Positions 6,983 to 63,482 of a stretch of 64,000 nt of DNA are shown here, piece by piece. The DNA lies in assembly GCA_046563655.1 (NCBI GenBank), contig CM102285.1:6634001-6698000 (forward strand), read 5' to 3'. The translations under genes were made by a program, and so were the position numbers. The stretch is from Yuukianura sp. NJ FZ-2021 (lineage: Eukaryota). Position 1 is the first letter of the stretch. Each line of letters begins with the position of its first letter. The notes beneath the pieces are model-generated. The model searched no databases, had not been told where the DNA came from, and saw only the letters and a program-made list of their open reading frames with translations.

Positions 6983-7082
6983 NNNNNNNNNNNNNNNNNN
7001 NNNNNNNNNNNNNNNNNNNNNNNNNNNNNNNNNNNNNNNNNNNNNNNNNNNNNNNNNNNNNNNNNNNNNNNNNNNNNNNNNN
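6983..7082. other. Assembly/scaffolding gap (exactly 100 N)
   Basis: Run of 100 N. This round number is the usual placeholder for a gap of unknown size. Confidence 0.99.
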
Positions 7083-22000: not shown

Positions 22001-25000
22001 ATAATTTCGGTTTGCAATTTTGACATCTCAGATAGCCCAGAATGACTTTTTGGGGAGTTTTTAATGAAAAAAAATGATTTTTTGGTGATAAAATTGAGCT
22101 TTGAACACTTCAGATGGGCTTTCACAAGCATAATTTCGGTTTGCAATTTTGACATCTCAGATAGCCCAGAATGACTTTTTGGGAGTTTTTAATGAAAAAA
22201 AAATGATTTTTTTGGTGAAAAATTGAGCTTGGAACACTTCAGATGGGCTTTCACAAGCATAATTTCGGTTTGCAATTTTGACTCCTGAGATAGCCCAGAA
22301 TGACTTTTTGGTGAGTTTTTAATGAAAAAATGGATTTTTTGGTGAAAAATTGAGCTTGGAACACTTCAGATGGGCTTTCACAAACATAATTTCGGTTTGC
22401 AATTTTGACATCTCAGATAGCCCAGAATGACTTTTTGGGGAGTTTTTAATGAAAAAAAATGATTTTTTGGTGAAAAATTGAGCTTAAAACACTTCAGATG
22501 GGCTTTCACAAGCATAATTTCGGTTTGCAATTTTGACATATCAGATAGCCCAGAATGACTTTTTGAGGAGTTTTTAATGAAAAAAAAATGATTTTTTGGT
22601 GAAAAATTGAGCTTTGAACACTTCAGATGGGCTTTCACAAGCATAATTTCGGTTTGCAATTTTGACATCTGAGATAGCCCAGAATGACTTTTTGGGGAGT
22701 TTTTAATGAAAAAATGGATTTTTTTGAGAAAAATTGAGCTTGGAACACTTCAGATGGGCTTTCACAAGCATAATTTCGGTTTGCAATTTTGACATCTCAG
22801 ATAGCCCAGAATGACTTTTTGGGGAGTTTTTAATGAAAAAAAATGATTTTTTGGTGAAAAATTGAGCTTGGAACACTTCAGATGGGCTTTCACAAGCATA
22901 ATTTCGGTTTGCAATTTTGACATCTCAGATAGCCCAGAATGACTTTTTGGGGAGTTTTTAATGAAAAAAAAATGATTTTTTGGTGAAAAATTGAGCTTGG
23001 AACACTTCAGATGGGCTTTCACAAGCATAATTTCGGTTTGCAATTTTGACATCTCCGATAGCCCAGAATGACTTTTTGGAGTTTTTAAAGAAAAAAAAAT
23101 GATTTTTTGGTGAAAAATTGAGCTTTGAACACTTCAGATGGGCTTTCACAAGCATAATTTCGGTTTGCAATTTTGACATCTCAGATAGCCCAGAATGACT
23201 TTTTGGGGAGTTTTTAATGAAAAAATGGATTTTTTTGAGAAAAATTGAGTTTGGTACACTTCAGATGGGCTTTCACAAGCATAATTTCGGTTTGCAATTT
23301 TGACATCTCAGATAGCCCAGAATGACTTTTTGGGGAGTTTTTAATGAAAAAAAATGATTTTTTGGTGAAAAATTGAGCTTGGAACACTTCAGATGGGCTT
23401 TCACAAGCATAATTTCGGTTTGCAATTTTGACATCTCAGATAGCCCAGAATGACTTTTTGGGGAGTTTTTAATGAAAAAAAATGATTTTTTGGTGATAAA
23501 ATTGAGCTTGGAACACTTCAGATGGGCTTTCGCAAGCATAATTTCGGTTTGCAATTTTGACATCTCAGATAGCCCAGAATGACTTTTTTGGGAGTTTTTA
23601 TAGAAAAAAAATGATTTTTTGGTGAAAAATTGAGCTTTGAACACTTCAGATGGGCTTTCACAAGCATAATTTCGGTTTGCAATTTTGACATCTGAGATAG
23701 CCCAGAATGACTTTTTGGGGAGTTTTTAATGAAAAAAAATGATTTTTTGGTGAAAAATTGAGCTTGGAACACTTCAGATGGGCTTTCACAAGCATAATTT
23801 CGGTTTGCAATTTTGACATCTCAGATAGCCCAGAATGACTTTTGGGGAGTTTTTAATGAAAAAAATGATTTTTTGGTGAAAAATTGAGCTTTGAACACTT
23901 CAGATGGGCTTTCACAAGCATAATTTCGGTTTGCAATTTTGACATCTCAGATAGCCCAGAATGACTTTTTGGGAGTTTTTAATGAAAAAAAATGATTTTT
24001 TGGTGAAAAATTGAGCTTGGAACACTTCAGATGGGCTTTCGCAAGCATAATTTCGGTTTGATATTTGGCATATCAGATAGCCCAGAATGACTTTTTGAGG
24101 AGTTTTTAATGAAAAAAAATGATTTTTTGGTGAAAAATTGAGCTTGGAACACTTCAGATGGGCTTTCACAAGCATAATTTCGGTTTGCAATTTTGACATC
24201 TCAGATAGCCCAGAATGACTTTTTGGGAGTTTTTAATGAAAAAAAATGATTTTTTGGTGAAAAATTGAGCTTGGAACACTTCAGATGGGCTTTCACAAGC
24301 ATAATTTCGGTTTGCAATTTTGACATCTCAGATAGCCCAGAATGACTTTTTGGGGAGTTTTTAATGAAAAAAAAATGATTTTTTGGTGATAAAATTGAGC
24401 TTTGAACACTTCAGATGGGCTTTCACAAGCATAATTTCGGTTTGCAATTTTGACATCTCAGATAGCCCAGAATGACTTTTTGGGAGTTTTTAATGAAAAA
24501 AAAAATGATTTTTTGGTGAAAAATTGAGCTTGGAACACTTCAGATGGGCTTTCACAAGCATAATTTCGGTTTGCAATTTTGACATCTGAGATAGCCCAGA
24601 ATGACTTTTTGGGGAGTTTTTAATGAAAAAAAATGATTTTTTGGTGAAAAATTGAGCTTGGAACAATTCAGATGGGCTTTCACAAACATAATTTCGGTTT
24701 GCAATTTTGACATCTCAGATAGCCCAGAATGACTTTTTGGGAGTTTTTAATGAAAAAAAAATGATTTTTTGGTGAAAAATTGAGCTTGGAACACTTCAGA
24801 TGGGCTTTCACAAGCATAATTTCGGTTTGCAATTTTGACATCTCAGATAGCCCAGAATGACTTTTTGGGAGTTTTTAATGAAAAAAATGATTTTTTGGAG
24901 AAAAATTGAGCTTGGAACACTTCAGATGGGCTTTCACAAGCATAATTTCGGTTTGATATTTGGCATATCAGATAGCCCATAATGACTTTTTGAGGAGTTT

Positions 25001-28000
25001 TTAATGAAAAAAAATGATTTTTTGGTGAAAAATTGAGCTTGGAACACTTCAGATGGGCTTTCACAAGCATAATTTCGGTTTGCAATTTTGACATCTCAGA
25101 TAGCCCAGAATGACTTTTTGGGGAGTTTTTAATGAAAAAAAAATGATTTTTTGGTGAAAAATTGAGCTTGGAACACTTCAGATGGGCTTTCACAAGCATA
25201 ATTTCGGTTTGCAATTTTGACATCTCAGATAGCCCAGAATGACTTTTTGAGGAGTTTTTAATGAAAAAAAATGATTTTTTGGTGATAAAATTGAGCTTGG
25301 AACACTTCAGATGGGCTTTCTGAAGCAAAATATGGGTTTGCAATTTTGACTTCACACATTGCCCAGAATGACTTTTTGTGGAGTTTTTAATGAAGAAAAT
25401 GGATTTTTTTTTAGAAAACTTGAGCTTTGTACACTTCAGATGGGCGTTCAGAAGCATAATATCGGATTGCAATTTTGACTTCACACATTGCCCAGAATGA
25501 CTTTTTGGGGAGTTTTTAATGAAAAAATGATTTTTTTTGAGAAAAATTGAGTTTGGTACACTTCAGATGGGCTTTCTGAAGCAAAATATGGGTTTGCAAT
25601 TTTGACTTCACACATTGCCCAGAATGACTTTTTGGGGAGTTTTTAATGAAAAAATGGATTTTTTTGAGAAAAATTGAGTTTGGTACACTTCAGATGGGCT
25701 TTCTGAAGCAAAATATGGGTTTGCAATTTTGACATCTCCGATAGCCCAGAATGACTTTTTTAGGAGTTTTTAATGAAAAAAAATGATTTTTTGGTGAAAA
25801 ATTGAGCTTGGAACACTTCAGATGGGCTTTCACAAGCATAATTTCGGTTTGCAATTTTGAATTATCAGATAGCCCAGAATGACTTTTTGTGGAGTTTTTA
25901 ATGAAAAAAATGATTTTTTGGTGAAAATTGAGCTTGGAACAATTCAGATGGGCTTTCACAAACATAATTTCGGTTTGCAATTTTGACATCTCAGATAGCC
26001 CAGATTGACTTTTTGGGGAGTTTTTAATGAAAAAAAAATGATTTTTTGGGGAAAAATTGAGCTTGGAACACTTCAGATGGGCTTTCACAAGCATAATTTC
26101 GGTTTGCAATTTTGACATCTGAGATAGCCCAGAATGACTTTTTGGGGAGTTTTTAATGAAAAAAAAATGATTTTTTGGTGATAAAATTGAGCTTTGAACA
26201 CTTCAGATGGGCTTTCACAAGCATAATTTCGGTTTGCAATTTTGACATCTCAGATAGCCCAGAATGACTTTTTTGGAGTTTTTAAAGAAAAAAAAAATGA
26301 TTTTTTGGTAAAAAATTGAGCTTGGAACACTTCAGATGGGCTTTCACAAGCATAATTTCGGTTTGCAATTTTGACATCTCAGATAGCCCAGAATGACTTT
26401 TGGGGAGTTTTTAATGAAAAAAATGATTTTTTGGTGAAAAATTGAGCTTGGAACACTTCAGATGGGCTTTCACAAGCATTCTTTCGGTTTGCAATTTTGC
26501 CATCTCAGATAGCCCAGAATGACTTTTGGAGAGTTTTTAATGAAAAAAAATGATTTTTTGGTGAAAAATTGAGCTTGGAACACTACAGATGGGCTTTCAC
26601 AAGCATAATTTCGGTTTGCAATTTTGACATCTCAGATAGCCCAGAATGACTTTTTGGGAGTTTTTAATGAAAAAAATGATTTTTTGGTGAAAATTGAGCT
26701 TGGAACAATTCAGATGGGCTTTCACAAGCATAATTTCGGTTTGCAATTTTGACATCTCAGATAGCCCAGAATGACTTTTTGGGGAGTTTTTAATGAAAAA
26801 AAATGATTTTTTGGTGAAAAATTGAGCTTGGAACACTTCAGATGGGCTTTCACAAGCATAATTTCGGTTTGCAATTTTGACATCTCAGATAGCCCAGAAT
26901 GACTTTTTGGGGAGTTTTTAATGAAAAAAAATGATTTTTTGGTGAAAAATTGAGCTAGGAACACTTCAGATGGGCTTTCACAAGCATAATTTCGGTTTGC
27001 AATTTTGACATCTGAGATAGCCCAGAATGACTTTTTGGGGAGTTTTTAATGAAAAAAAATGATTTTTTGGTGAAAAATTGAGCTTGGAACACTTCAGATG
27101 GGCTTTCACAAGCATATTTTCGGTTTGCAATTTTGACTCCTCGGATATCCCAGAATGACTTTTTGGGGAGTTTTTAATGAAAAAAATGATTTTTTGGTGA
27201 AAAATTGAGCTTGGAACACTTCAGATGGGCTTTCACAAGCATAATTTCGGTTTGCAATTTTGACATCTGAGATAGCCCAGAATGACTTTTTGGGGAGTTT
27301 TTAATGAAAAAATGGATTTTTTTGAGAAAAATTGAGCTTGGAACACTTCAGATGGGCTTTCACAAGCATAATTTCGGTTTGCAATTTTGACATCTCAGAT
27401 AGCCCAGAATGACTTTTTGGGGAGTTTTTAATGAAAAAAAAATGATTTTTTGGTGATAAAATTGAGCTTTGGAACACTTCAGATGGGCTTTCACAAGCAT
27501 AATTTCGGTTTGCAATTTTGACATCTCCGATAGCCCAGAATGACTTTTTGGGAGTTTTTAATGAAAAAAAATGATTTTTTGGTGAAAAATTGAGTTTGGT
27601 ACACTTCAGATGGGCTTTCTGAAGCATAATATCGGATTGCAATTTTGACTTCACACATTGCCCAGAATGACTTTTTGTGGAGTTTTTAATGAAGAAAATG
27701 GATTTTTTTTTAGAAAACTTGAGCTTTGTACACTTCAGATGGGCTTTCAGAAGCATAATATCGGATTGCAATTTTGACTCTTCAGATAGCCCAGAATGAC
27801 TTTTTGGGGAGTTTTTAATGAAAAAAAAATGATTTTTTGGTGAAAAATTGAGCTTGGAACACTTCAGATGGGCTTTCACAAGCATAATTTCGGTTTGATA
27901 TTTGGCATATCAGATAGCCCATAATGACTTTTTGAGGAGTTTTTAATGAAAAAAAATGATTTTTTGGTGAAAAATTGAGCTTTGAACACTTCAGATGGGC

Positions 28001-31000
28001 TTTCACAAGCATAATTTCGGTTTGCAATTTTGGCATATCAGATAGCCCAGAATGACTTTTTGAGTTTTTAATGAAAAAAATGATTTTTTGGTGAAAAATT
28101 GAGCTTTGAACACTTCAGATGGGCTTTCACAAGCATAATTTCGGTTTGATATTTGGCATATCAGATAGCCCAGAATGACTTTTTGAGGAGTTTTTAATGA
28201 AAAAAAATGATTTTTTGGTGAAAATTGAGCTTGGAACACTTCAGATGGGCTTTCACAAGCATAATTTCGGTTTGCAATTTTGACATCTCAGATAGCCCAG
28301 AATGACTTTTTGGGGAGTTTTTAATGAAAAAAAAATGATTTTTTGGTGAAAAATTGAGCTTGGAACACTTCAGATGGGCTTTCACAAGCATAATTTCGGT
28401 TTGCAATTTTGACATCTGAGATAGCCCAGAATGACTTTTTGGGGAGTTTTTAATGAAAAAAATGATTTTTTGGTGAAAATTGAGCTTGGAACACTTCAGA
28501 TGGGCGTTCAGAAGCATAATATCGGATTGCAATTTTGACTTCACACATTGCCCAGAATGACTTTTTGGGGAGTTTTTAATGAAAAAATGGATTTTTTTGA
28601 GAAAAATTGAGTTTGGTACACTTCAGATGGGCTTTCTGAAGCAAAATATGGGTTTGCAATTTTGACATCTCAGATAGCCCAGAATGACTTTTTGTGGAGT
28701 TTTTAATGAAAAAAAATGATTTTTTGGTGAAAAATTGAGCTAGGAACACTTCAGATGGGCTTTCACAAGCATAATTTCGGTTTGCAATTTTGACTCCTCG
28801 GATAGCCCAGAATGACTTTTTGGGGAGTTTTTAATGAAAAAAAATGATTTTTTGGTGAAAAATTGAGCTTTGAACACTTCAGATGGGCTTTCGCAAGCAT
28901 AATTTCGGTTTGCAATTTTGACATCTGAGATAGCCCAGAATGACATTTTGGGGAGTTTTTAATGAAAAAAATGATTTTTTGGTGAAAAATTGAGCTTGGA
29001 ACACTTCAGATGGGCTTTCACAAGCATAATCTCGGTTTGCAATTTTGACATCTGAGATAGCCCAGAATGACATTTTGAGGAGTATTTAATGAAGAAAATG
29101 ATTTTTTGGTGAAAAATTGAGCTTGGAACAATTCAGATGGGCTTTCACAAGCATAATTTCGGTTTGCAATTTTGACATCTCAGATAGCCCAGAATGACTT
29201 TTTGGGGAGTTTTAAATGAAAAAAAAATGATTTTTTGGTGAAAAATTGAGCTTGGAACACTTCAGATGGGCTTTCACAAGCATAATTTCGGTTTGCAATT
29301 TTGACTCCTCGGATATCCCAGAATGACTTTTTGGGGAGTTTTTAATGAAAAAAAATGATTTTTTGGTGAAAAATTGAGCTTGGAACACTTCAGATGGGCT
29401 TTCACAAGCATAATTTCGGTTTGCAATTTTGACATCTCAGATAGCCCAGAATGACTTTTTGGGGAGTTTTTAATGAAAAAAAAATGATTTTTTGGTGAAA
29501 AATTGAGCTTGGAACACTTCAGATGGCCTTTCACAAGCATAATTTCGGTTTGCAATTTTGACATCTCAGATAGCCCAGAATGACTTTTTGGGAGTTTTTA
29601 ATGAAAAAAAAAATGATTTTTTGTTGAAAAATTGAGCTTGGAACACTTCAGATGGGCTTTCACAAGCATAATTTCGGTTTGCAATTTTGACATCTCAGAT
29701 AGCCCAGAATGACTTTTTGGGGAGTTTTTAATGAAAAAAAATGATTTTTTGGTGAAAAATTGATCTTGGAACACTTCAGATGGGCTTTAACACGCATATT
29801 TTCGGTTTGCATTTTTGACTCCTCGGATATCCCAGAATGACTTTTTGGGGAGTTTTTAATGAAAAAAGAAATGACTTTTTGGTAAAAAATTGAGCTTGGA
29901 ACACTTCAGATGGGTTTTCACAAGCATAATTTCGGTTTGCAATTTTGACATCTCAGATAGCCCAGAATGACTTTTGGGGAGTTTTTAATGAAAAAAAATG
30001 ATTTTTTGGTGAAAATTGAGCTTGGAACACTTCAGATGGGCTTTCACAAGCATAATTTCGGTTTGCAATTTTGACATCTCAGATAGCCCAGAATGACTTT
30101 TTGGGGAGTTTTTAATGAAAAAAAAATGATTTTTTGGTGAAAAATTGAGCTTGGAACACTTCAGATGGGCTTTCACAAGCATAATTTCGGTTTGCAATTT
30201 TGACATCTCAGATAGCCCAGAATGACTTTTTGGGGAGTTTTTAAAGAAAAAAAAAATGATTTTTTGGTGAAAAATTGAGCTTGGAACACTTCAGATGGGC
30301 GTTCAGAAGCATAATATCGGATTGCAATTTTGACTTCACACATTGCCCAGAATGACTTTTTGGGGAGTTTTTAATGAAAAAATGGATTTTTTTGAGAAAA
30401 ATTGAGTTTGGTACACTTCAGATGGGCGTTCAGAAGCATAATATCGGATTGCAATTTTGACTTCACACATTGCCCAGAATGACTTTTTGGGGAGTTTTTA
30501 ATGAAAAAATGGATTTTTTTGAGAAAAATTGAGTTTGGTACACTTCAGATGGGCTTTCACAAGCATAATTTCGGTTTGCAATTTTGACATCTGAGATAGC
30601 CCAGAATGACTTTTTGGGGAGTTTTTAATGAAAAAAAAATGATTTTTTGGTGAAAAATTGAGCTTGGAACACTTCAGATGGGCTTTCACAAGCATAATTT
30701 CGGTTTGCAATTTTGACATCTGAGATAGCCCAGAATGACTTTTTGGGGAGTTTTTAATGAAAAAAAAATGATTTTTTGGTGAAAAATTGAGCTTGGAACA
30801 CTTCAGATGGGCTTTCACAAGCATAATTTCGGTTTGCAATTTTGACTCCTCGGATATCCCAGAATGACTTTTGGGGAGTTTTTAATGAAAAAAAAATGAT
30901 TTTTTGGTGAAAAATTGAGCTTGGAACACTTCAGATGGGCTTTCACAATCATAATTTCGGTTTGCAATTTTGACTCCTCGGATATCCCAGAATGACTTTT

Positions 31001-33791
31001 TGGGGAGTTTTTAATGAAAAAAAATGATTTTTTGGTGAAAAATTGAGCTTTGAACACTTCAGATGGGCTTTCACAAGCATAATTTCGGTTTGCGATTTTG
31101 ACTCCTCGGATAGCCCAGAATGACTTTTTTAGGAGTTTTTAATGAAAAAAAAAATGATTTTTTGGTAAAAAATTGAGCTTTGAACACTTCAGATGGGCTT
31201 TCACAAGCATAATTTCGGTTTGCAATTTTGACATCTGAGATAGCCCAGAATGACTTTTTGTGGAGTTTTTAATGAAAAAAAAATGATTTTTTGGTGAAAA
31301 ATTGAGCTTGGAACACTTCAGATGGGCGTTCAGAAGCATAATATCGGATTGCAATTTTGACTTCACACATTGCCCAGAATGACTTTTTGGGGAGTTTTTA
31401 ATGAAAAAACGAATTTTTTTGAGAAAAATTGAGTTTGGTACACTTCAGATGGGCTTTCTGAAGCATAATATCGGTTTGCAATTTTGACATCTCAGATAGC
31501 CCAGAATGACTTTTTGGGGAGTTTTTAATGAAAAAAAATGATTTTTTGGTGAAAAATTGAGCTTGGAACAATTCAGATGGGCTTTCACAAGCATAATTTC
31601 GGTTTGCAATTTTGACACCTCAGATAGCCCAGAATGACTTTTTGGGGAGTTTTTAATGAAAAAAAATGATTTTTTGGTGAAAAATTGAGCTTGGAACACT
31701 TCAGATGGGCTTTCACAAGCATAATTTCGGTTTGCAATTTTGACATCTCAGATAGCCCAGAATGACTTTTTGGGGAGTTTTTAATGAAAAAAAAATTATT
31801 TTTTGGTGAAAATTGATCGTGGAACACTTCAGATGCGCTTTTACAACCATAATTTCGGTTTGCAATTTTGACATCTCAGATAGCCCAGAATGACTTTTTG
31901 TGGAGTTTTTAATGAAAAAAAAATGATTTTTTGGTGAAAAATTGAGCTTGGAACACTTCAGATGGGCTTTCACAAGCATAATTTCGGTTTGCAATTTTGA
32001 CACCTCAGATAGCCCAGAATGACTTTTTGGGGAGTTATTAATGAAAAAAAAATGATTTTTTGGTGAAAAATTGAGCTTGGAACAATTCAGATGGGCTTTC
32101 ACAAGCATAATTTCGGTTTGCAATTTTGACATCTCAGATAGCCCAGAATGACTTTTTGGGGAGTTTTTAATGAAAAAAAAATGATTTTTTGGGGAAAAAT
32201 TGAGCTTGGAACAATTCAGATGGGCTTTCACAAGCATAATTTCGGTTTGCAATTTTGACATCTCAGATAGCCCAGAATGACTTTTTGTGGAGTTTTTAAT
32301 GAAAAAAAAATGATTTTTTGGTGAAAAATTGAGCTAGGAACACTTCAGATGGGCTTTCACAAGCATAATTTCGGTTTGCAATTTTGACTCCTCGGATATC
32401 CCAGAATGACTTTTTGAGGAGTTTTTAATGAAAAAAGAAATGATTTTTTGGTGAAAAATTGAGCTTGGAACACTTCAGATGGGCTTTCACAAGCATAATT
32501 TCGGTTTGCAATTTTGACATCTCCGATAGCCCAGAATGACTTTTTTGGAGTTTTTAATGAAAAAAAAAATGATTTTTTGGTGAAAAATTGAGCTTGGAAC
32601 ACTTCAGATGGGCTTTCACAAGCATAATTTCGGTTTGCAATTTTGACATCTGAGATAGCCCAGAATGACTTTTTGGGGAGTTTTTAATGAAAAAAAAAAT
32701 GATTTTTTGGTGATAAAATTGAGCTTTGAACACTTCAGATGGGCTTTCGCAAGCATAATTTCGGTTTGCAATTTTGACATCTGAGATAGCCCAGAATGAC
32801 TTTTTGGGGAGTTTTTAATGAAAAAAAAAATGATTTTTTGGTGATAAAATTGAGCTTTGAACACTTCAGATGGGCTTTCGCAAGCATAATTTCGGTTTGC
32901 AATTTTGACATCTCCGATAGCCCAGAATGACTTTTTTGGAGTTTTTAAAGAAAAAAAAAATGATTTTTTGGTGAAAAATTGAGCTTGGAACACTTCAGAT
33001 GGGCTTTCACAAGCATAATTTCTGTTTGCAATTTTGACATCTGAGATAGCCCAGAATGACTTTTTGGGGAGTTTTTAATGAAAAAAAATGATTTTTTGGT
33101 GAAAATTGAGCTTGGAACAATTCAGATGGGCTTTCACAAACATAATTTCGGTTTGCAATTTTGACATCTCAGATAGCCCAGATTGACTTTTTGGGGAGTT
33201 TTTAATGAAAAAAAAATGATTTTTTGGGGAAAAATTGAGCTTGGAACAATTCAGATGGGCTTTCACAAGCATAATTTCGGTTTGCAATTTTGACATCTCA
33301 GATAGCCCAGAATGACTTTTTGGGGAGTTTTTAATGAAAAAAAAATGATTTTTTGGTGAAAAATTGAGCTTGGAACACTTCAGATGGGCTTTCACAAGCA
33401 TAATTTCGGTTTGCAATTTTGACTCCTCGGATATCCCAGAATGACTTTTTGAGGAGTTTTTAATGAAAAAAGAAATGATTTTTTGGTGAAAAATTGAGCT
33501 TGGAACACTTCAGATGGGCTTTCACAAGCATAATTTCGGTTTGCAATTTTGACATCTCAGATAGCCCAGAATGACTTTTGGGGAGTTTTTAATGAAAAAA
33601 AATGATTTTTTGGTGAAAAATTGAGCTTGGAACACTTCAGATGGGCTTTCACAAGCATAATTTCGGTTTGCAATTTTGACATCTCAGATAGCCCAGAATG
33701 ACTTTTTGGGGAGTTTTTAATGAAAAAAAAATGATTTTTTGGTGAAAAATTGAGCTTGGAACACTTCAGATGGGCTTTCACAAGCATAATT
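7083..33791 (-). repeat. Satellite B (~128-bp monomer), left arm, roughly 208 copies; strand label is arbitrary and opposite to the right arm
   Basis: Tandem unit GGAGTTTTTAATGAAAAAAAATGATTTTTTGGTGAAAAATTGAGCTTGGAACACTTCAGATGGGCTTTCACAAGCATAATTTCGGTTTGCAATTTTGACATCTCAGATAGCCCAGAATGACTTTTTGG. The period is about 126-130 bp because of homopolymer length variation. Copy number is estimated as length/128. Confidence 0.99.
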
Positions 33792-33810
33792 CAAAATCAT
33801 AATTATGCTT
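33782..33810. other. Inversion (fold-back) junction of satellite B with a 9-bp spacer
   Basis: ...CACAAGCATAATT ends at 33791, followed by CAAAATCAT (33792-33800), followed by AATTATGCTTGTG... starting at 33801. Both arms break at the same monomer position and are reverse complements of each other. Confidence 0.97.
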
Positions 33811-36800
33811 GTGAAAGCCCATCTGAAGTGTTCCAAGCTCAATTTTTCACCAAAAAATCATTTTTTTTCATTAAAAACTCCCCAAAAAGTCATTCTGGGC
33901 TATCTGAGATGTCAAAATTGCAAACCGAAATTATGCTTGTGAAAGCCCATCTGAAGTGTTCCAAGCTCAATTTTTCACCAAAAAATCATTTCTTTTTTCA
34001 TTAAAAACTCCTCAAAAAGTCATTCTGGGATATCCGAGGAGTCAAAATTGCAAACCGAAATTATGCTTGTGAAAGCCCATCTGAAGTGTTCCAAGCTCAA
34101 TTTTTCACCAAAAAATCATTTTTTTTCATTAAAAACTCCCAAAAAGTCATTCTGGGCTATCTGAGATGTCAAAATTGCAAACCGAAATTATGCTTGTGAA
34201 AGCCCATCTGAATTGTTCCAAGCTCAATTTTCACCAAAAAATCATTTTTTTTCATTAAAAACTCCCCAAAAAGTCATTCTGGGCTATCTCAGATGTCAAA
34301 ATTGCAAACCGAAATTATGCTTGTGAAAGCCCATCTGAAGTGTTCCAGGCTCAATTTTTCACCAAAAAATCATTTTTTTTCATTAAAAACTCCCCAACAA
34401 GTCATTCTGGGCTATCTCAGATGTCAAAATTGCAAACCGAAATTATGCTTGTGAAAGCCCATCTGAAGTGTTCCTAGCTCAATTTTTCACAAAAAAATCA
34501 TTTTTTTTTCATTAAAAACTCCCCAAAAAGTAATTCTGGGCTATCTCAGATGTCAAAATTGCAAACCGAAATTATGCTTGTGAAAGCCCATCTGAAGTGT
34601 TCCAGGCTCAATTTTTCACCAAAAAATCATTTTTTTTCATTAAAAACTCCCCAAAAAGTCATTCTGGGATATCCGAGGAGTCAAAATTGCAAACCGAAAT
34701 TATGCTTGTGAAAGCCCATCTGAAGTGTTCCTAGCTCAATTTTTCACCAAAAAATCATTTTTTTTTTCATTAAAAACTCCCCAAAAAGTAATTCTGGGCT
34801 ATCTCAGATGTCAAAATTGCAAACCGAAATTATGCTTGTGAAAGCCCATCTGAATTGTTCCAAGCTCAATTTTTCACCAAAAAATCATTTTGTTTCATTA
34901 AAAACTCCTCAAAAAGTCATTTTTTTTTCATTAAAAACTCCTAAAAAAGTCATTCTGGGCTATCCGAGGAGTCAAAATCGCAAACCGAAATTATGCTTGC
35001 GAAAGCCCATCTGAAGTGTTCCAAGCTCAATTTTATCACCAAAAAATCATTTTTTTCAATAAAAACTCCCCAAAAAGTCATTCTGGGCAATCTGAGATGT
35101 CAAAATTGCAAACCGAAATTATGCTTGTGAAAGCCCATCTGAATTGTTCCAAGCTCAATTTTCACCAAAAAATCATTTTTTTTTCATTAAAAACTCCCAA
35201 AAAGTCATTCTGGGCTATCTCAGATGTCAAAATTGCAAACCGAAATTATGCTTGTGAAAGCCCATCTGAAGTGTTCCAAGCTCAATTTATCACCAAAAAA
35301 TCATTTTTTTTCTTTAAAAACTCCCCAAAAAAAATCATTCTGGGCTATCTGAGATGTCAAAATTGCAAACCGAAATTATGCTTGTGAAAGCCCATCTGAA
35401 TTGTTCCAAGCTCAATTTTCACCAAAAAATCATTTTTTTCATTAAAAACTCCCAAAAAGTCATTCTGGGCTATCTCAGATGTCAAAATTGCAAACCGAAA
35501 TTATGCTTGCGAAAGCCCATCTGAAGTGTTCAAAGCTCAATTTTATCACCAAAAAATCATTTTTTTTCATTAAAAACTCCCCAAAAAGTCATTCTGGGCT
35601 ATCTCAGATGTCAAAATTGCAAACCGAAATTATGCTTGTGAAAGCCCATCTGAAGTGTTCCAAGCTCAATTTTTCACCAAAAAATCATTTTTTTTTCATT
35701 AAAAACTCCCCAAAAAGTCATTCTGGGCTATCTCAGATGTCAAAATTGCAAACAGAAATTATGCTTGTGAAAGCCCATCTGAAGTGTTCCAAGCTCAATT
35801 TTTCACCAAAAAATCATTTTTTTTTTCTTTAAAAACTCCAAAAAAGTCATTCTGGGCTATCGGAGATGTCAAAATTGCAAACCGAAATTATGCTTGCGAA
35901 AGCCCATCTGAAGTGTTCAAAGCTCAATTTTATCACCAAAAAATCATTTTTTTTTCATTAAAAACTCCAAAAAAGTCATTCTGGGCTATCGGAGATGTCA
36001 AAATTGCAAACCGAAATTATGCTTGTGAAAGCCCATCTGAAGTGTTCCAAGCTCAATTTTTCACCAAAAAATCATTTCTTTTTTCATTAAAAACTCCTCA
36101 AAAAGTCATTCTGGGCTATCGGAGATGTCAAAATTGCAAACCGAAATTATGGTTGTAAAAGCGCATCTGAAGTGTTCCACGATCAATTTTCACCAAAAAA
36201 TAATTTTTTTTTCATTAAAAACTCCTCAAAAAGTCATTCTGGGATATCCGAGGAGTCAAAATTGCAAACCGAAATTATGCTTGTGAAAGCCCATCTGAAG
36301 TGTTCCTAGCTCAATTTTTCACCAAAAAATCATTTTTTTTCATTAAAAACTCCCCAAAAAGTCATTCTGGGCTATCTGAGATGTCAAAATTGCAAACCGA
36401 AATTATGCTTGTGAAAGCCCATCTGAATTGTTCCAAGCTCAATTTTTCCCCAAAAAATCATTTTTTTTTCATTAAAAACTCCCCAAAAAGTCATTCTGGG
36501 CTATCTGAGATGTCAAAATTGCAAACCGAAATTATGCTTGTGAAAGCCCATCTGAAGTGTTCCAAGATCAATTTTCACCAGAAAAATCATTTTTTTCATT
36601 AAAAACTCCCCAAAAAGTCATTCTGGGCTATCTCAGATGTCAAAATTGCAAACCGAAATTATGCTTGTGAAAGCCCATCTGAAGTGTTCAAAGCTCAATT
36701 TTATCAGCAAAAAATCATTTTTTTCATTAAAAACTCCCCAAAAAGTCATTCTGGGATATCTCAGATGTCAAAATTGCAAACCGAAATTATGCTTGTTAAA

Positions 36801-39800
36801 GCCCATCTGAAGTGTTCCAAGCTCAATTATTCACCAAAAAATCATTTTTTTCTTTAAAAACTCCAAAAAGTCATTATGGGCTATCTGATATGCCAAATAT
36901 TGCAAACCGAAATTATGCTTGTGAAAGCCCATCTGAAGTGTTCAAAGCTCAATTTTCACCAAAAAATAATTTTTTTTTCATTAAAAACTCCTCAAAAAGT
37001 CATTCTGGGATATCCGAGGAGTCAAAATTGCAAACCGAAATTATGCTTGTGAAAGCCCATCTGAAGTGTTCAAAGCTCAATTTTTCACCAAAAAATCATT
37101 TTTTTTCATTAAAAACTCCTCAAAAAGTCATTTTGGGCTATCTGAGGAGTCAAAATTGCAAACCGAAATTATGCTTGTGAAAGCCCATCTGAAGTGTTCC
37201 AAGCTCAATTTTTCCCCAAAAAATAATTTTCTTTCCATTAAAAACTCCCCAAAAAGTCATTCTGGGCTATCTGAGATGTCAAAATTGCAAACCGAAATTA
37301 TGCTTGTGAAAGCCCATCTGAATTGTTCCAAGCTCAATTTTTCACCAAAAAATCATTTTTTTTCAATAAAAACTCCCCAAAAAGTCATTCTGGGCTATCT
37401 GAGATGTCAAAATTGCAAACCGAAATTATGCTTGTGAAAACCCATCTGAAGTGTTCCAAGCTCAATTTTTTACCAAAAAGTCATTTCTTTTTTCATTAAA
37501 AACTCCCCAAAAAGTCATTCTGGGCTATCTGAGATGTCAAAATTGCAAACCGAAATTATGCTTGTTAAAGCCCATCTGAAGCGTTCCAAGATCAATTTTT
37601 CACCAAAAAATCCATTTTTTCATTAAAAACTCCCCAAAAAGTCATTCTGGGCAATGTGTGAAGTCAAAATTGCAAACCGAAATTATGCTTGTGAAAGCCC
37701 ATCTGAAGTGTTCCAAGCTCAATTTTTCACCAAAAAATCATTTTTTTTCATTAAAAACTCCCCAAAAAGTCATTCTGGGCTATCTGAGATGTCAAAATTG
37801 CAAACCGAAATTATGCTTGTGAAAGCCCATCTGAAGTGTTCCAAGCTCAATTTTTCACAAAAAAATCAATTTTTTTTTCATTAAAAACTCCCAAAAAGTC
37901 ATTCTGGGCTATCTCAGATGTCAAAATTGCAAACCGAAATTATGCTTGTGAAAGCCCATCTGAAGTGTTCAAAGCTCAATTTTTCACAAAAAAATCATTT
38001 TTTTTTCATTAAAAACTCCTAAAAAAGTCATTATGGGCTATCTGATATGCCAAATATCAAACCGAAATTATGCTTGTGAAAGCCCATCTGAAGTGTTCCA
38101 AGCTCAATTTTTCACCAAAAAATCATTTTTTTTCATTAAAAACTCCTCAAAAAGTCATTCTGGGCTATCCGAGGAGTCAAAATTGCAAACCCATGTTTTG
38201 CTTCAGAAAGCAAATCTGAAGTGTACTAAACTCAATTTTTCTAAAAAAAATCCATTTTTTTCATTAAAAACTCCCAAAAAGTCATTCTGGGCTATCTCAG
38301 ATGTCAAAATTGCAAACCGAAATTATGCTTGTGAAAGCCCATCTGAATTGTTCCAAGCTCAATTTTTCACCAAAAAATCATTTTTTTTCATTAAAAACTC
38401 CCTAAAAAAGTCATTCTGGGCTATCTGAGAGTCAAAATTGCAAACCGACATTATGCTTGTGAAAGCCCATATGAAGTGTTCCAAGCTCAATTTTTCACCA
38501 AAAAATCATTTTTTTTCATTAAAAACTCCCCAAAAAGTCATTCTGGGCTATCTGAGATGTCAAAATTGCAAACCGAAATTATGCTTGTGAAAGCCCATCT
38601 GAATTGTTCCAAGCTCAATTTTTCACCAAAAAATCATTTTTTTCATTAAAAACTCCCCAAAAAAGTCATTCTGGGCTATCTCAGATGTCAAAATTGCAAA
38701 CCGAAATTATGCTTGTGAAAGCCCATCTGAAGTGTTCCAAGCTCAATTTTTCACCAAAAAATCATTTTTTTTTCTTTAAAAACTCCCCAAAAAGTCATTC
38801 TGGGCTATCTGAGATGTCAAAATTGCAAACCGAAATTATGCTTGTGAAAGCCCATCTGAATTGTTCCAAGCTCAATTTTCACCAAAAAATCATTTTTTTC
38901 ATTAAAAACTCCCCAAAAAGTCATTCTGGGCTATCTCAGATGTCAAAATTGCAAACCGAAATTATGCTTGCGAAAGCCCATCTGAAGTGTTCAAAGCTCA
39001 ATTTTATCACCAAAAAATCATTTTTTTTCATTAAAAACTCCCCAAAAAGTCATTCTGGGCTATCTGAGATGTCAAAATTGCAAACCGAAATTATGCTTGT
39101 GAAAGCCCATCTGAATTGTTCCAAGCTCAATTTTTCACCAAAAAATCATTTTTTTTCATTAAAAACTCCCCAAAAAGTCATTCTGGGCTATCTCAGATGT
39201 CAAAATTGCAAACCGAAATTATGCTTGTGAAAGCCCATCTGAAGTGTTCCAAGCTCAATTTTTCACCAAAAAATCATTTTTTTTTCATTAAAAACTCTCC
39301 AAAAGTCATTCTGGGCTATCTGAGATGTCAAAATTGCAAACCGAAATTATGCTTGTGAAAGCCCATCTGAAGTGTTCAAAGCTCAATTTTTCACCAAAAA
39401 ATCATTTTTTTTTATTAAAAACTCCTCAAAAAGTCATTATGGGCTATCTGATATGCCAAATATCAAACCGAAATTATGCTTGTGAAAGCCCATCTGAAGT
39501 GTTCCAAGCTCAATTTTTCTCCGAAAAATCCATTTCTTTTTCATTAAAAACTCCTCAAAAAGTCATTCTGGGCTATCTGAGATGTCAAAATTGCAAACCG
39601 AAATTATGGTTGTAAAAGCGCATCTGAAGTGTTCCACGATCAATTTTCACCAAAAAATAATTTTTTTTTCATTAAAAACTCCTCAAAAAGTCATTCTGGG
39701 ATATCCGAGGAGTCAAAATTGCAAACCGAAATTATGCTTGTGAAAGCCCATCTGAAGTGTTCAAAGCTCAATTTTTCACCAAAAAATCATTTTTTTTCAT

Positions 39801-42800
39801 TAAAAACTCCTCAAAAAGTCATTATGGGCTATCTGATATGCCAAATATCAAACCGAAATTATGCTTGTGAAAGCCCATCTGAAGTGTTCCAAGCTCAATT
39901 TTTCACCAAAAAATCATTTTTTTTTCATTAAAAACTCCCCAAAAAGTCATTCTGGGCTATCTGAGATGTCAAAATTGCAAACCGAAATTATGCTTGTGAA
40001 AGCCCATCTGAAGTGTTCCAAGCTCAATTTTCACCAAAAAATCATTTTTTTTCATTAAAAACTCCCCAAAAAGTCATTCTGGGCTATCTCAGATGTCAAA
40101 ATTGCAAACCGAAATTATGCTTCTGAAAGCCCATCTGAAGTGTACAAAGCTCAAGTTTTCTAAAAAAAAATCCATTTTTTCATTAAAAACTCCCCAAAAA
40201 GTCATTCTGGGCTATCTGAAGAGTCAAAATTGCAAACCCATATTTTGCTTCAGAAAGCCCATCTGAAGTGTACCAAACTCAATTTTTCTCAAAAAAATCC
40301 ATTTTTTCATTAAAAACTCCCCAAAAAGTCATTCTGGGCTATCTGAAGAGTCAAAATTGCAAACCGATATTATGCTTGTGAAAGCCCATCTGAAGTGTTC
40401 CAAGCTCAATTTTTCACCAAAAAATAATTTTTTTTCATTAAAAACTCCCCAAAAAGTCATTCTGGGCTATCTGAGATGTCAAAATTGCAATCCGATATTT
40501 TGCCTCGGAAAGCCCATCTGAAGTGTAGCAAACTCAATTTTTCTCAAAAAAATCCATTTTTTCATTAAAAACTCCCCAAAAAGTCATTCTGGGCAATCTG
40601 AGATGTCAAAATTGCAAACCGAAATTATGCTTGCGAAAGCCCATCTGAAGTGTTCAAAGCTCAATTTTGTCACCAAAAAATCATTTTTTTTCATTAAAAA
40701 CTCCCAAAAAGTCATTCTGGGCTATCTGAGATGTCAAAATTGCAAACCGAAATTATGCTTGTGAAAGCCCATCTGAAGTGTTCCAAGCTCAATTTTTCAC
40801 CAAAAAATCATTTTTTTCATTAAAAACTCCCCAAAAGTCATTCTGGGCTATCTCAGATGTCAAAATTGCAAACAGAAATTATGCTTGTGAAAGCCCATCT
40901 GAAGTGTTCCAAGCTCAATTTTCACCAAAAAATCATTTTTTTTCATTAAAAACTCCCCAAAAAGTCATTCTGGGCTATCTCAGATGTCAAAATTGCAAAC
41001 CGAAATTATGCTTGTGAAAGCCCATCTGAAGTGTTCCTAGCTCAATTTTTCACAAAAAAATCATTTTTTTTCATTAAAAACTCCTCAAAAAGTCATTCTG
41101 GGCTATCTCAGATGTCAAAATTGCAAACCGAAATTATGCTTGTGAAAGCCCATCTGAAGTGTTCCAAGCTCAATTATTCACCAAAAAATCATTTTTTTCA
41201 TTAAAAGCTCCCAAAAAGTCATTCTGGGATATCCGAGGAGTCAAAATTGCAAACAGAAAATATGCTTGTGAAAGCCCATCTGAAGTGTTCCAAGCTCAAT
41301 TTTTCACCAAAAAAATCATTTTTTTTTCATTAAAAACTCCCAAAAAGTAATTCTGGGCTATCTCAGATGTCAAAATTGCAAACCGAAATTATGCTTGTGA
41401 AAGCCCATCTGAATTGTTCCAAGCTCAATTTTTCACCAAAAAATCATTTTTTTTCATTAAAAACTCCTAAAAAAGTCATTCTGGGCTATCCGAGGAGTCA
41501 AAATCGCAAACCGAAATTATGCTTGTGAAAGCCCATCTGAAGTGTTCAAAGCTCAATTTTTCACCAAAAAATCATTTTTTTTTCATTAAAAACTCCCCAA
41601 AAAGTCATTCTGGGCTATCTGAGATGTCAAAATTGCAAACCGAAATTATGCTTGTGAAAGCCCATCTGAATTGTTCCAAGCTCAATTTTCACCAAAAAAT
41701 CATTTTGTTTCATTAAAAACTCCTCAAAAAGTCATTCTGGGCTATCTGATATGTCAAAATTGCAAACCGAAATTATGCTTGTGAAAGCCCATCTGAAGTG
41801 TTCCAAGCTCAATTTTTCACCAAAAAATCATTTTTTTTTCATTAAAAACTCCCCAAAAAGTCATTCTGGGCTATCTGAGATGTCAAAATTGCAAACCGAA
41901 ATTATGCTTGTGAAAGCCCATCTGAAGTGTTCCAAGCTCAATTTTTCACCAAAAAATCATTTTTTTTCATTAAAAACTCCCCAAAAAGTCATTCTGGGCT
42001 ATCTGAGATGTCAAAATTGCAAACCGAAATTATGCTTGTGAAAGCCCATCTGAAGTGTTCCAAGCTCAATTTTACACAAAAAATCATTTTTTTTCATTAA
42101 AAACTCCCCAAAAAAGTCATTCTGGGCTATCTGAGATGTCAAAATTGCAAACCGAAATTATGCTTGTGAAAGCCCATCTGAATTGTTCCAAAGCTCAATT
42201 TTTCACCAAAAAATCATTTTTTTTTCATTAAAAACTCCCCAAAAAGTCATTCTGGGCTATCTCAGATGTCAAAATTGCAAACCGAAATTATGCTTGTGAA
42301 AGCCCATCTGAAGTGTTCCAAGCTCAATTTTTCACCAAAAAATCATTTTTTTTTCATTAAAAACTCCCAAAAAGTCATTCTGGGCTATCGGAGATGTCAA
42401 AATTGCAAACCGAAATTATGCTTGTGAAAGCCCATCTGAAGTGTTCAAAGCTCAATTTTTCACCAAAAAATCATTTTTTTTTATTAAAAACTCCTCAAAA
42501 AGTCAGGGCTATCTGAGATGCCAAAGTTGCAAACCGAAATTATGCTTGTGAAAGCCCATCTGAAGTGTTCCAAGCTCAATTTTTCACCAAAAAGTCATTT
42601 CTTCTTTCATTAAAAACTCCTCAAAAAGTCATTCTGGGCTATCTGAGATGTCAAAATTGCAAACCGAAATTATGGTTGTAAAAGCGCATCTGAAGTGTTC
42701 CACGATCAATTTTCACCAAAAAATAATTTTTTTTTCATTAAAAACTCCTCAAAAAGTCATTCTGGGATATCCGAGGAGTCAAAATTGCAAACCGAAATTA

Positions 42801-45800
42801 TGCTTGTGAAAGCCCATCTGAAGTGTTCCAAGATCAATTTTTCACCAAAAAATCATTTTTTTCATTAAAAACTCCCCAAAAAGTCATTCTGGGCTATCTG
42901 AGATGTCAAAATTGCAAACCGAAATTATGCTTGTGAAAGCCCATCTGAAGTGTTCCAAGCTCAATTTTTCACCAAAAAATCATTTTTTTTTCATTAAAAA
43001 CTCCCCAAAAAGTCATTCTGGGCTATCTGAGATGTCAAAATTGCAAACCGAAATTATGCTTGTGAAAGCCCATCTGAAGTGTTCCAAGCTCAATTTTTCA
43101 CCAAAAAATCATTTTTTTTCATTAAAAACTCCCCAAAAAGTCATTCTGGGCTATCTCAGATGTCAAAATTGCAAACCGAAATTATGCTTGTGAAAGCCCA
43201 TCTGAAGTGTTCCAAGCTCAATTTTTCACCAAAAAATCATTTTTTTTTCATTAAAAACTCCCCAAAAAGTCATTCTGGGCTATCTGAGATGTCAAAATTG
43301 CAAACCGAAATTATGCTTGTGAAAGCCCATCTGAAGTGTTCCAAGCTCAATTTTTCACCAAAAAATCATTTTTTTCATTAAAAACTCCCCCAAAAAGTCA
43401 TTCTGGGCTATCTGAGATGTCAAAATTGCAAACCGAAATTATGCTTGTGAAAGCCCATCTGAAGTGTTCCAAGCTCAATTTTTCACCAAAAAATCATTTT
43501 TTTTCATTAAAAACTCCCCAAAAAGTCATTCTGGGCTATCTGAGATGTCAAAATTGCAAACCGAAATTATGCTTGTGAAAGCCCATCTGAAGTGTTCAAA
43601 GCTCAATTTTATCAGCAAAAAATCATTTTTTTTCATTAAAAACTCCCAAAAAGTCATTCTGGGCTATCTCAGATGTCAAAATTGCAAACCGAAATTATGC
43701 TTGTGAAAGCCCATCTGAAGTGTTCCAAGCTCAATTTTTCACCAAAAAATCATTTCTTTCATTAAAAACTCCTCAAAAAGTCATTCTAGGGTATCGGAGA
43801 TGTCGAATTGCAAACCGAAATTATGCTTGCGAAAGCCCATCTGAAGTGTTCCAAGCTCAATTTTTCACCAAAAAATCATTTTTTTTTCATTAAAAACTCC
43901 TAAAAAAGTCATTCTGGGCTATCCGAGGAGTCAAAATCGCAAACCGAAATTATGCTTGTGAAAGCCCATCTGAAGTGTTCAAAGCTCAATTTTTCACCAA
44001 AAAAAATATTTTGTTCATTAAAAACTAAAAAAGTCTTTCTGGGCTATCCGAGGAGTCAAAATTGCAAACCGAAATTATGCTTGTGAAAGCCCATCTGAAG
44101 TGTTCAAAGCTCAATTTTTCACCAAAAAATCATTTTTTTTCATTAAAAACTCCTCAAAAAGTCATTCTGGGCTATCTCAGATGTCAAAATTGCAAACCGA
44201 AATTATGCTTGTGAAAGCCCATCTGAAGTGTTCCAAGCTCAATTTTTCACCAAAAAATCATTTTTTTTCATTAAAAACTCCCCAAAAAGTCATTCTGGGC
44301 TATCTGAGATGTCAAAATTGCAAACCGAAATTATGCTTGTGAAAGCCCATCTGAAGTGTTCCAAGCTCAATTTTTCACCAAAAAATCATTTTTTTTCATT
44401 AAAAACTCCCCAAAAAGTCATTCTGGGCTATCTCAGATGTCAAAATTGCAAACCGAAATTATGCTTGTGAAAGCCCATCTGAAGTGTTCCAGGCTCAATT
44501 TTTCACCAAAAAATCATTTTTTTTCATTAAAAACTCCCCAAAAAGTCATTCTGGGCTATCTCAGATGTCAAAATTGCAAACCGAAATTATGCTTGGAAAA
44601 GCCCATCTGAAGTGTTCCAAGCTCAATTTTTCACCAAAAAAATCATTTTTTTTTCATTAAAAACTCCCCAAAAGTCATTCTGGGCTATCTGAGATGTCAA
44701 AATTGCAAACCGAAATTATGCTTGTGAAAACCCATCTGAAGTGTTCCAAGCTCAATTTTTTACCAAAAAGTCATTTCTTTTTTCATTAAAAACTCCCCAA
44801 AAAGTCATTCTGGGATATCCGAGGAGTCAAAAATGCAAACCGAAAATATGCGTGTTAAAGCCCATCTGAAGTGTTCCAAGATCAATTTTTCTCAAAAAAA
44901 TCCATTTTTTCATTAAAAACTCCTCAAAAAGTCATTCTGGGCTATCTGATATGCCAAATATCAAACCGAAATTATGCTCGTGAAAGCCCATCTGAAGTGT
45001 TCCAAGCTCAATTTTTCACCAAAAAATCATTTTTTTTTCATTAAAAACTCCTAAAAAAGTCATTCTGGGCTATCCGAGGAGTCAAAATCGCAAACCGAAA
45101 TTATGCTTGTGAAAGCCCATCTGAAGTGTTCAAAGCTCAATTTTTCACCAAAAAATCATTTTTTTTTCATTAAAAACTCCTCAAAAAGTCATTCTGGGCT
45201 ATCTGAGATGTCAAAATTGCAAACCGAAATTATGCTTGTGAAAGCCCATCTGAAGTGTTCCAAGCTCAATTTTTCACCAAAAAATCATTTTTTTTCATTA
45301 AAAACTCCCCAAAAAGTCATTCTGGGCTATCTGAGATGTCAAAATTGCAAACCGAAATTATGCTTGTGAAAGCCCATCTGAAGTGTTCCAAGCTCAATTT
45401 TTCACCAAAAAATCATTTTTTTTTTCATTAAAAACTCTCCAAAAGTCATTCTGGGCTATCTGAGATGTCAAAATTGCAAACCGAAATTATGCTTGTGAAA
45501 GCCCATCTGAAGTGTTCCAAGCTCAATTTTTCACCAAAAAATCATTTTTTTTCATTAAAAACTCCTCAAAAAGTCATTCTGGGCTATCTGATATGTCAAA
45601 ATTGCAAACCGAAATTATGCTTGTGAAAGCCCATCTGAAGTGTTTTAAGCTCAATTTTTCACCAAAAAATCATTTTTTTTCATTAAAAACTCCCCAAAAA
45701 GTCATTCTGGGCTATCTGAGATGTCAAAATTGCAAACCGAAATTATGCTTGTGAAAGCCCATCTGAAGTGTTCCAAGCTCAATTTTTCACCAAAAAATCA

Positions 45801-62789: not shown

Positions 62790-62803
62790 GAGCCGAGAGC
62801 TGT
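62790..62803 (+). repeat. Left terminal inverted repeat
   Basis: GAGCCGAGAGCTGT, the exact reverse complement of 63770-63783. Confidence 0.95.
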
Positions 62804-63107
62804 CCTTCATGATTAGATTAGGCAATAGCTTAATCTACTCCTAAGCAAAAGAAAAACCGGGTTTTATTTGGAGATCATACTCCAAAAAGAGTTTAGATTA
62901 AGCTAATTTTTGGCTTAGCTTTAATCCAACTTTCCGTTCCCCCACGTAGCGCGCCGGACAGTGTTCCCAGTGGAAACTTTCTCTTAAGGGAGACGACTGT
63001 GAGTTCAAAACCTGCAGCAGATGTAATTTTTTTTATTTTGTCCGAACATGCCCACTCATATAATATTGCCTTTCAGGGATGGCAGGTGACCCCAACATGT
63101 CCAAGAA

Positions 63108-63482
63108 AGGTCAAAGGTCAAGCCAAATTCGGTTGACCCCACGTGACCTCAAATATTAACTGCACAAAAGGGTTTCCTTAAGAAAACACTCATCCTACGC
63201 ATAACACAAGAACATGCGTGACTCAGCTGAGGTCCACAGGTAATTCTTAACTTGAAGTGACCTGACCTTTGACCTTGAAGGAGTGTAACTAGCTCGTGCA
63301 TAGCATTGAACAACAAATTGAGACAGACCAGCATTAAAGCACTCATTTTAGATGCCAAGTTGGGTCATTCGCTGTTGACCTCACGTTTGACCTCAACAAG
63401 GGGTGGCGGGAATATGTATCGTACACAAAAAAGATTATCTAGTTAATGGAAACAAGTTTTGGGTAGGTCATTTCATAGGTCA
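63108..63482. promoter_or_regulatory. Cluster of RGGTCA/TGACCY half-sites, including two perfect DR1 elements in inverted orientation (function unknown)
   Basis: AGGTCAAAGGTCA (63108-63120), TGACCCcacgTGACCT (63134-63149), TGACCT (63258), TGACCTtTGACCT (63263-63275), GGGTCA (63362), TGACCT (63376 and 63388), AGGTCA (63465 and 63477). The motifs are seen directly; a regulatory role is inferred. Confidence 0.4.

What the first reader, a model, noticed from the sequence alone, without database searches (positions are those of the whole stretch)
33782..33810. Satellite array flips orientation at a near-perfect hairpin centre, forming a >55-kb macro-palindrome
Seen: both arms end at the identical monomer position and are separated by only 9 bp (AAGCATAATT-caaaatcat-AATTATGCTT). 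The first monomers on each side are reverse complements apart from an A9 versus T8 run. An ordinary two-break inversion would not be expected to cut at the same phase on both sides. Inference: fold-back or sister-chromatid end fusion, or a replication template switch. The centre could extrude a cruciform, a structure proposed to matter for centromere identity and for fragility.
Basis: partly seen in the sequence, partly recalled or inferred. Interest (0 to 1): 0.8.

Follow-up and report, generated by a model that had tools for sequence, protein, structure and literature searches.

The report
Old fold-back scar in satellite array
A 128-base repeated DNA array in a small arthropod genome turns around once, at a near-perfect hairpin point, most likely the scar of an old fold-back repair whose two arms have since been reshuffled, a known kind of rearrangement and not a true giant palindrome.

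Summary
The junction is as described: a 128-bp satellite switches strand at 33792-33800, both arms starting at the same monomer base. The '>55-kb macro-palindrome' is overstated: arms are opposite-strand arrays, not mirror copies. Identity in mirror register is 93.4% against 93.5% for random pairs, and the perfect stem is 68 bp. A local mirror trace survives: 3 rare exact monomers are shared by the innermost 30 monomers of each arm (null mean 0.36), and one occurs only 3 times in the genome, all within 1.4 kb of the junction. That favours an old fold-back or template switch at the self-complementary AATT, with a templated 9-nt filler and later turnover (about 0.6). The junction is single-copy and the only direct switch in 424 kb of this satellite examined. 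It could not be confirmed in reads, so a chimera or mis-join stays open (about 0.2). Closest known: Tribolium satellite macro-dyad symmetries and mouse and human strand switches. The scan noted a strand switch before in another genome (e1-643297). Nothing here tests cruciform or centromere function.

The parts
7083..33791 (-). Left arm: about 209 monomers of the 128-bp satellite, 26.7 kb, ending at a scaffold gap
33792..33800 (.). 9-nt filler CAAAATCAT; 8 of 9 bases match the monomer itself; with its flanks it makes a 7-bp direct repeat CATAATT (33785-33791 and 33798-33804) and a 10-bp palindrome at 33798-33807
   Evidence: 8-nt match in 1.3-1.5% of 20000 random or shuffled 9-mers
33663..33928 (.). 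Innermost monomer pair: 68-bp perfect stem, one-base bulge, 128 bp paired in all; 9-nt loop
   Evidence: single-strand fold -154.8 kcal/mol, z -36; expected for any inverted monomer pair
33801..62789 (+). Right arm within the window: about 226 monomers; continues past two insertions to G000:C3:6732509, then non-satellite DNA
33406..33535 (-). Rare 130-bp monomer, copy in left arm (monomer 2); further copies at 32371-32500 (-) and 33929-34058 (+), none elsewhere in the assembly
33929..34058 (+). Same rare 130-bp monomer in right arm (monomer 1)
32892..33020 (-). Rare monomer (left monomer 6) identical to right monomer 15 (35757-35885) and 215
32113..32241 (-). Rare monomer (left monomer 12, also 124) identical to right monomer 20 (36401-36529) and 220
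6983..7082 (.). 100-N scaffold gap between a 160-bp satellite and the left arm; a second, opposite junction could be hidden here

Best explanation
A real, single, not recent inverted duplication inside a chromosome-specific 128-bp satellite array. Shown: same-phase strand switch at a self-complementary AATT, 9-nt filler, local sharing of rare monomers across the junction, no long-range mirror. Inferred steps: (1) a broken or stalled end in the array gained a few templated bases from the monomer; (2) its 3' AATT paired with the AATT 9 nt behind it, or with the identical end of the sister, and primed synthesis back along the array, giving two arms identical at birth; a perfect palindrome whose centre was later cut and repaired with 13 extra bases would leave the same letters; (3) a second event, probably in the unassembled gap, restored a linear chromosome; (4) unequal exchange, local duplication and deletion then reshuffled monomer order in each arm, leaving only a mirror trace in the inner 2-4 kb. 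The site is most likely a neutral scar; it could form a hairpin on single-stranded DNA at replication, but no function is shown.
For: Innermost 30x30 monomers share 3 of 19 rare exact monomer types, in mirror order (left 2/10 with right 1, left 6 with right 15, left 12 with right 20); null mean 0.36, and 0.13% of 3960 window pairs reach 3; at 20x20, 2 against 0.16 (0.8%); with long homopolymers capped, 3 against 0.18 (0.07%). One 130-bp monomer occurs 3 times in the assembly, all within 1.4 kb of the junction and on both sides. The best match of left monomers 0-15 among 159 windows of the C3 array lies just across the junction. No step in variant frequencies at the junction (0.032; range 0.021-0.056), so two distant parts were not joined. 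Recurrent arm-private variants: 13 of 81 against about 5.5 under block shuffles, p 0.002-0.007, which implies time since the event. No reciprocal junction at this phase in the assembly. No rise of singleton 31-mers at the junction (0.06). Yeast fold-backs can use 4-bp stems and loops under 15 nt (PMC7467729, passages); 5-9-bp inverted repeats with 3-12-bp spacers drive palindromic duplications (PMC7999016, passage).
Against: The junction could not be confirmed in reads. The local trace rests on three monomer types, and at 12x12 it is not significant (1 against 0.06, 6%). Similar blocks exist elsewhere: left monomers 0-15 score 0.51 against left 168 versus 0.55 across the junction, and right monomers 0-21 match right 214-226 better (0.57) than the left arm (0.42). 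Whole-arm mirror tests are null. The excess of arm-private variants could partly be ordinary positional clustering, since other split points give as many private variants in 100-monomer windows. The second junction was not found. The filler model is fitted after the fact.
Confidence: 0.6

Rival explanations
1. Library or assembly artefact: a chimeric long read (amplification template switch or ligation) joins two true parts, or two haplotypes, of the array, and the assembler extended it by 26.7 kb to a contig end.
For: The junction is single-copy, the only direct switch in 424 kb of this satellite, and 26.7 kb from a contig end. Small animals are often sequenced from amplified DNA (general knowledge); inverted chimeras are the commonest MDA artefact and cause misassembly (10.64898/2026.06.11.730069, passages). 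Such switches would also favour a self-complementary word (inference). The library type of this assembly is unknown.
Against: A fold-back read or a local amplification switch copies the same molecule, so one arm should run into an exact mirror of the other; the longest exact match between the 26.7-kb left arm and the whole right arm is 378 bp. A random ligation explains neither the same phase, nor the filler, nor the shared rare monomers at the junction. No local rise in singleton k-mers (low power).
Confidence: 0.2
2. Ordinary two-break inversion of part of the array, joined through AATT microhomology with a small insertion; the same phase follows from the palindromic word.
For: The monomer has few self-complementary words and the junction lies on one. 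Arms are not mirror copies. Inversions in satellite arrays are common (10.1101/2021.07.12.452052, passages). The reciprocal junction could lie in the gap.
Against: It should bring a distant part of the array next to the right arm, yet the two inner ends share rare monomers and variant frequencies run on without a step. No reciprocal junction at this phase in the assembly (assembly incomplete).
Confidence: 0.13
3. A maintained functional dyad: the hairpin or cruciform at the junction helps organise or specify centromeric chromatin, as proposed for Tribolium.
For: 68-bp perfect stem, AT-rich 9-nt loop; the array lies among satellites, gaps and mobile elements in mid-chromosome; on C4 two arrays of the family also point away from each other, across two gaps.
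Against: One copy in the assembly, against thousands of conserved inversion sites on several chromosomes in Tribolium. The C7 array has no switch along 107 kb. No CENP-A data. The Tribolium papers call the function untested.
Confidence: 0.05
4. Recent fold-back giving a true 55-kb palindrome with mirror-identical arms.
For: Same phase; first monomers 99.2% identical; left monomers 1-3 match right 0-2 over 254 compressed bases.
Against: Mirror-register identity equals random; no collinear chain; longest exact match 378 bp, off diagonal.
Confidence: 0.01

Closest known systems
Satellite macro-dyad symmetries of Tribolium freemani and T. madens (PMC12581902, passages; PMC13081366, abstract, passages, first half of Discussion)
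   Same: A satellite array changes monomer direction without a gap; multi-kb inverted subarrays of unequal length (up to 75 kb in T. madens); stems reach almost to the tip with 9-27-bp loops in T. freemani.
   Different: There the inversion sites are multi-copy (thousands), 95-99.9% conserved and on several chromosomes; in T. freemani the two monomers are cut at different positions and have no extraneous bases between. Here there is one copy, the same phase on both sides and a 9-nt filler. The host is another arthropod (98.7-Mb assembly; T. madens about 300 Mb).
Direction changes in mouse minor and major satellite; strand switches in human alpha, HSat3 and beta satellite (10.1101/2023.07.18.549612 and 10.1101/2021.07.12.452052, passages)
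   Same: Rare in-array strand switches: 1.92% of mouse minor and 0.85% of major satellite continuous arrays on reads; over 200 breakpoints in some human arrays; a polymorphic 1.7-Mb inversion in an active array.
   Different: The passages seen do not describe phase or filler at the breakpoints; these are mostly read as two-break inversions.
Foldback inversions / inverted duplications and ODIRA (PMC7467729, PMC10766186, PMC7999016, passages; PMC11724301 and 10.1101/2025.01.14.632981, abstracts)
   Same: Short stem (4 bp upward) and short loop at the centre, templated bases at breaks, need for a second rearrangement, enrichment in AT-rich centromeric DNA in Aspergillus.
   Different: Those are fresh events with identical arms in unique DNA; here the arms are satellite and have lost their mirror order. 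ODIRA spacers are 40-80 nt; this one is 9 nt.

Membership tests
Tribolium-type macro-dyad symmetry | Uninterrupted array with multi-kb subarrays in opposite orientation | tested here: met
   26.7-kb and over 29-kb arms, 9 bp apart
Tribolium-type macro-dyad symmetry | Stem reaches almost to the tip, loop 9-27 bp | tested here: met
   9-nt loop, 68-bp perfect stem
Tribolium-type macro-dyad symmetry | Inversion site conserved and repeated on several chromosomes | tested here: not met
   1 copy in the assembly; 1 direct switch in 424 kb on four sequences; unassembled satellite not seen
Tribolium-type macro-dyad symmetry | No extraneous bases; monomers cut at different positions (T. freemani types) | tested here: not met
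   Same phase and a 9-nt filler, though the filler may derive from the monomer
Tribolium-type macro-dyad symmetry | Confirmed on raw long reads | not testable with these tools
   Only graph contigs of runs were on offer
Foldback inversion (inverted duplication) | Short inverted repeat with short loop at the centre of symmetry | tested here: met
   AATT, 9 nt, AATT
Foldback inversion (inverted duplication) | Arms are copies of one another | tested here: inconclusive
   Not met over the whole arms; significant local trace in the inner 20-30 monomers
Foldback inversion (inverted duplication) | Second junction that restores a linear chromosome | tested here: inconclusive
   Not found at this phase; left arm ends at a gap
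True long palindrome (mirror-identical arms) | Base-for-base mirror identity above the background of the repeat | tested here: not met
   93.4% in register against 93.5% random
Functional centromere satellite | CENP-A/CenH3 binding | not testable with these tools
   No chromatin data
Functional centromere satellite | One major array on every chromosome | tested here: inconclusive
   Arrays seen on C3, C4, C7 and C17 (one search scored 36 of 548 candidates); 255 forward hits of the probe remain unplaced

The most novel reading that the evidence does not exclude
The junction is a real, single-copy founding stage of a Tribolium-like macro-dyad in an unrelated arthropod, and a built-in clock: two arms born identical now share only a few rare monomers in the inner 2-4 kb while point divergence stays low, so monomer order in this array is scrambled far faster than bases mutate. 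Together with the outward-pointing pair on C4, it may also hint at an inverted layout of this satellite around centromeres.
Probability: 0.3. Interest if true: 0.5.

Novelty: new member of a known kind. Interest (0 to 1): 0.3.

Why it matters
If real, it gives a base-resolved record of how a satellite array reverses direction, and a marker for measuring array turnover, because the arms started as copies. The authors of PMC13081366 state that array-level macro-dyads were documented only in Tribolium, so a non-Tribolium arthropod case is of some use, though mouse and human strand switches are in print. As one unvalidated junction with no functional data, it does not bear on centromere identity.

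Tried and rejected
Read support: graph contigs of 4 runs of one sample (4 of 11 listed) were laid on 33730-33862. None covers 33795-33799 and none spans the junction. This is not counted against the junction: such contigs drop rare variants, the best run holds only 71% of sampled words of 31800-35800, and 16% of that stretch's distinct 31-mers are single-copy and 33% have at most 5 copies in the fetched DNA. Joints with a GATC-type insert in run X2 look like proximity-ligation joints (label recalled) and were ignored. Junction 29-mer in JGI metagenomes: 0 hits, with no control for the monomer, so uninformative. Whole-arm mirror tests: null. The positive rank correlation of rare shared variants (0.32 over 91 pairs) was set aside because the pairs are not independent. 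The junction as a barrier to homogenisation: no peak in the split scan. Reciprocal junction at the same phase: 0 hits. C4 as a second switch: rejected as evidence, since its two arrays are 195 kb apart with a gap on each side. Kinship of the 128-bp and 160-bp satellites: local scores 32 and 46 against a shuffle maximum of 57, none shown. Filler as the tail of a retroelement: in-array LINE-like inserts end in short A-rich microsatellites, but 9 nt cannot test this. Paper searches gave no listing that describes a same-phase single junction; the library lacks most subscription papers, and I did not read the supplements of the Tribolium papers, whose junction alignments may hold a same-phase type.

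Full report
Setting. The window is G000:C3:6634001-6698000 of a 98.7-Mb assembly in 22 sequences. Sequence ends carry TTAGG-type repeats, and a flanking PPR protein has arthropod clusters as its three best feature hits (its recognition score was below the tool's threshold, so a lead only). The host is therefore probably an arthropod. The window holds a 160-bp satellite (1-6982), a 100-N gap, a 128-bp satellite on the minus strand (7083-33791) and the same satellite on the plus strand (33801-62790).

Observation. The junction is exactly as reported. Both arms start at the same monomer base, the filler is 9 nt, and the first monomers differ only in a T-run of 9 against 8, so the perfect stem is 68 bp. 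The inner monomer pair folds as one hairpin, as any inverted pair would. The junction occurs once in the assembly, as an exact 25-mer and as a pattern allowing any spacer up to 30 nt.

The arms are not mirror copies. Monomer i of the left arm is no closer to monomer i of the right arm than to a random one: substitution distance 6.15 against 6.03, identity 93.4% over 208 pairs against 93.5% over 2000 random pairs. The longest exact match between the left arm and the whole right arm is 378 bp, far off the diagonal. A monomer-level local alignment found no chain better than shuffled order, and a block test gave p=0.43. '55-kb macro-palindrome' is right only in the loose sense of two opposite-strand arrays.

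A local mirror trace does survive. Of 19 rare exact monomer types shared between the arms, 3 have copies in the innermost 30 monomers of both, in mirror order; the mean over 3960 other window pairs is 0.36 and 0.13% reach 3. At 20 monomers it is 2 against 0.16, and at 12 monomers 1 against 0.06, not significant. One of these monomers occurs only 3 times in the assembly, at 32371, 33406 and 33929. Left monomers 0-15 match best just across the junction among 159 windows, though a block at left monomer 168 is close behind, and right monomers 0-21 match a block in their own arm better than the left arm. Variant frequencies show no step at the junction. Both arms carry a variant found only on C3 (7 forward, 12 reverse), and each arm has recurrent private variants, 13 of 81 against about 5.5 in shuffles, although other split points also show private variants.

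The filler. Eight of its nine bases match the monomer, which 1.3-1.5% of random or shuffled 9-mers do. With its flanks it forms a 7-bp direct repeat and a 10-bp palindrome. This looks like templated synthesis at a break, or like repair at the centre of a perfect palindrome. Both are inferences: synthesis-dependent end joining is recalled, and the centre-break mechanism was seen only as a reference title.

Census. I fetched the arrays found on C3, C4, C7 and C17, 424 kb of satellite in all. They hold 999 of 1254 forward and 604 of 606 reverse genome-wide hits of a 28-mer probe, so the unplaced remainder is almost all on one strand. The window's junction is the only direct switch. On C4 a minus array and a plus array point away from each other, but 195 kb apart with a gap on each side. 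No reciprocal junction exists at this phase in the assembly.

Mechanism. The most likely history (0.6) is a fold-back or template switch at the self-complementary AATT, giving arms identical at birth, then a second event in the unassembled part, then turnover. Yeast fold-backs use stems from 4 bp and loops under 15 nt and need a second rearrangement (PMC7467729, passages); short templated inverted insertions arise at breaks (PMC11724301, abstract); such events cluster in AT-rich centromeric DNA of Aspergillus (10.1101/2025.01.14.632981, abstract). Same phase alone does not exclude a two-break inversion, since microhomology in a one-way array exists only at palindromic words (one search lists them), but that model does not predict shared rare monomers at the two inner ends (0.13). 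An artefact (0.2) stays open because no raw reads could be examined and amplified libraries are rich in inverted chimeras (10.64898/2026.06.11.730069, passages). Against it, a chimera of one molecule should give exact mirror sequence, which is absent, and singleton k-mers are not raised at the junction.

Comparison. Tribolium satellites form macro-dyads up to 75 kb with conserved inversion sites and 9-27-bp loops (PMC13081366; PMC12581902). This junction has the same layout but fails two of their features: it is single-copy, and it has the same phase with a filler. Strand switches are also reported for mouse and human satellites. Short spacers and long, similar arms raise palindrome fragility (PMC7999016, passages), so a replication hairpin here is plausible, but nothing tested shows extrusion or a centromere role. 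I did not read the supplements of these papers.

Verdict. The junction is present in the assembly and probably biological. It is a new member of a known kind, with the palindrome claim overstated and function unshown. Interest 0.3.

Noticed in passing
window 62790-63783: 994-bp non-coding element with 14-bp terminal inverted repeats and a 3-bp target duplication (CTG here, CGG at the C6 copy), inserted in the satellite; two other copies are 99% identical and several 74-84%. Looks like a young PIF/Harbinger-type MITE (family assignment recalled, not tested).
   Followed up: partly
G000:C3:6699077-6702570 (L003): 3.5-kb insert in the right arm with a 943-residue open frame and a short microsatellite tail, probably a LINE; about 23 bp of monomer are missing at the site and no target duplication is evident. 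Similar tailed inserts sit in the C4 and C7 arrays.
   Followed up: partly
G000:C3:6702570-6732509: Beyond that insert the right arm changes to a second variant domain with no consensus-type monomers and longer internal matches.
   Followed up: no
G000:C4:8443720-8539106 and 8734431-8827890: Two arrays of the 128-bp family point away from each other, the same polarity as at the window's junction, around a 195-kb contig with a 373-bp tandem repeat, each bounded by a gap; unplaced C17 carries the same subfamily. Real inverted layout or a scaffolding effect.
   Followed up: partly
window 1-6982 and upstream to about G000:C3:6575000: Very homogeneous 160-bp satellite (99% matches), also on C9, C10, C13 and C16; as good a centromere candidate as the 128-bp repeat.
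   Followed up: no
L013:885-2249 (+) and 2303-3334 (-): Two open frames with the same start sequence face each other about 50 bp apart, suggesting another inverted duplication, in a Polinton-like neighbourhood some 100 kb beyond the window.
   Followed up: no
L060 start (C4) and L063 end (C7): Telomeric TTAGG repeats are mixed with variant units containing AAG runs.
   Followed up: no
window 34828-34988 and 47274-47435: Monomers of 161-162 bp with an internal 33-bp duplication, in the right arm only.
   Followed up: no
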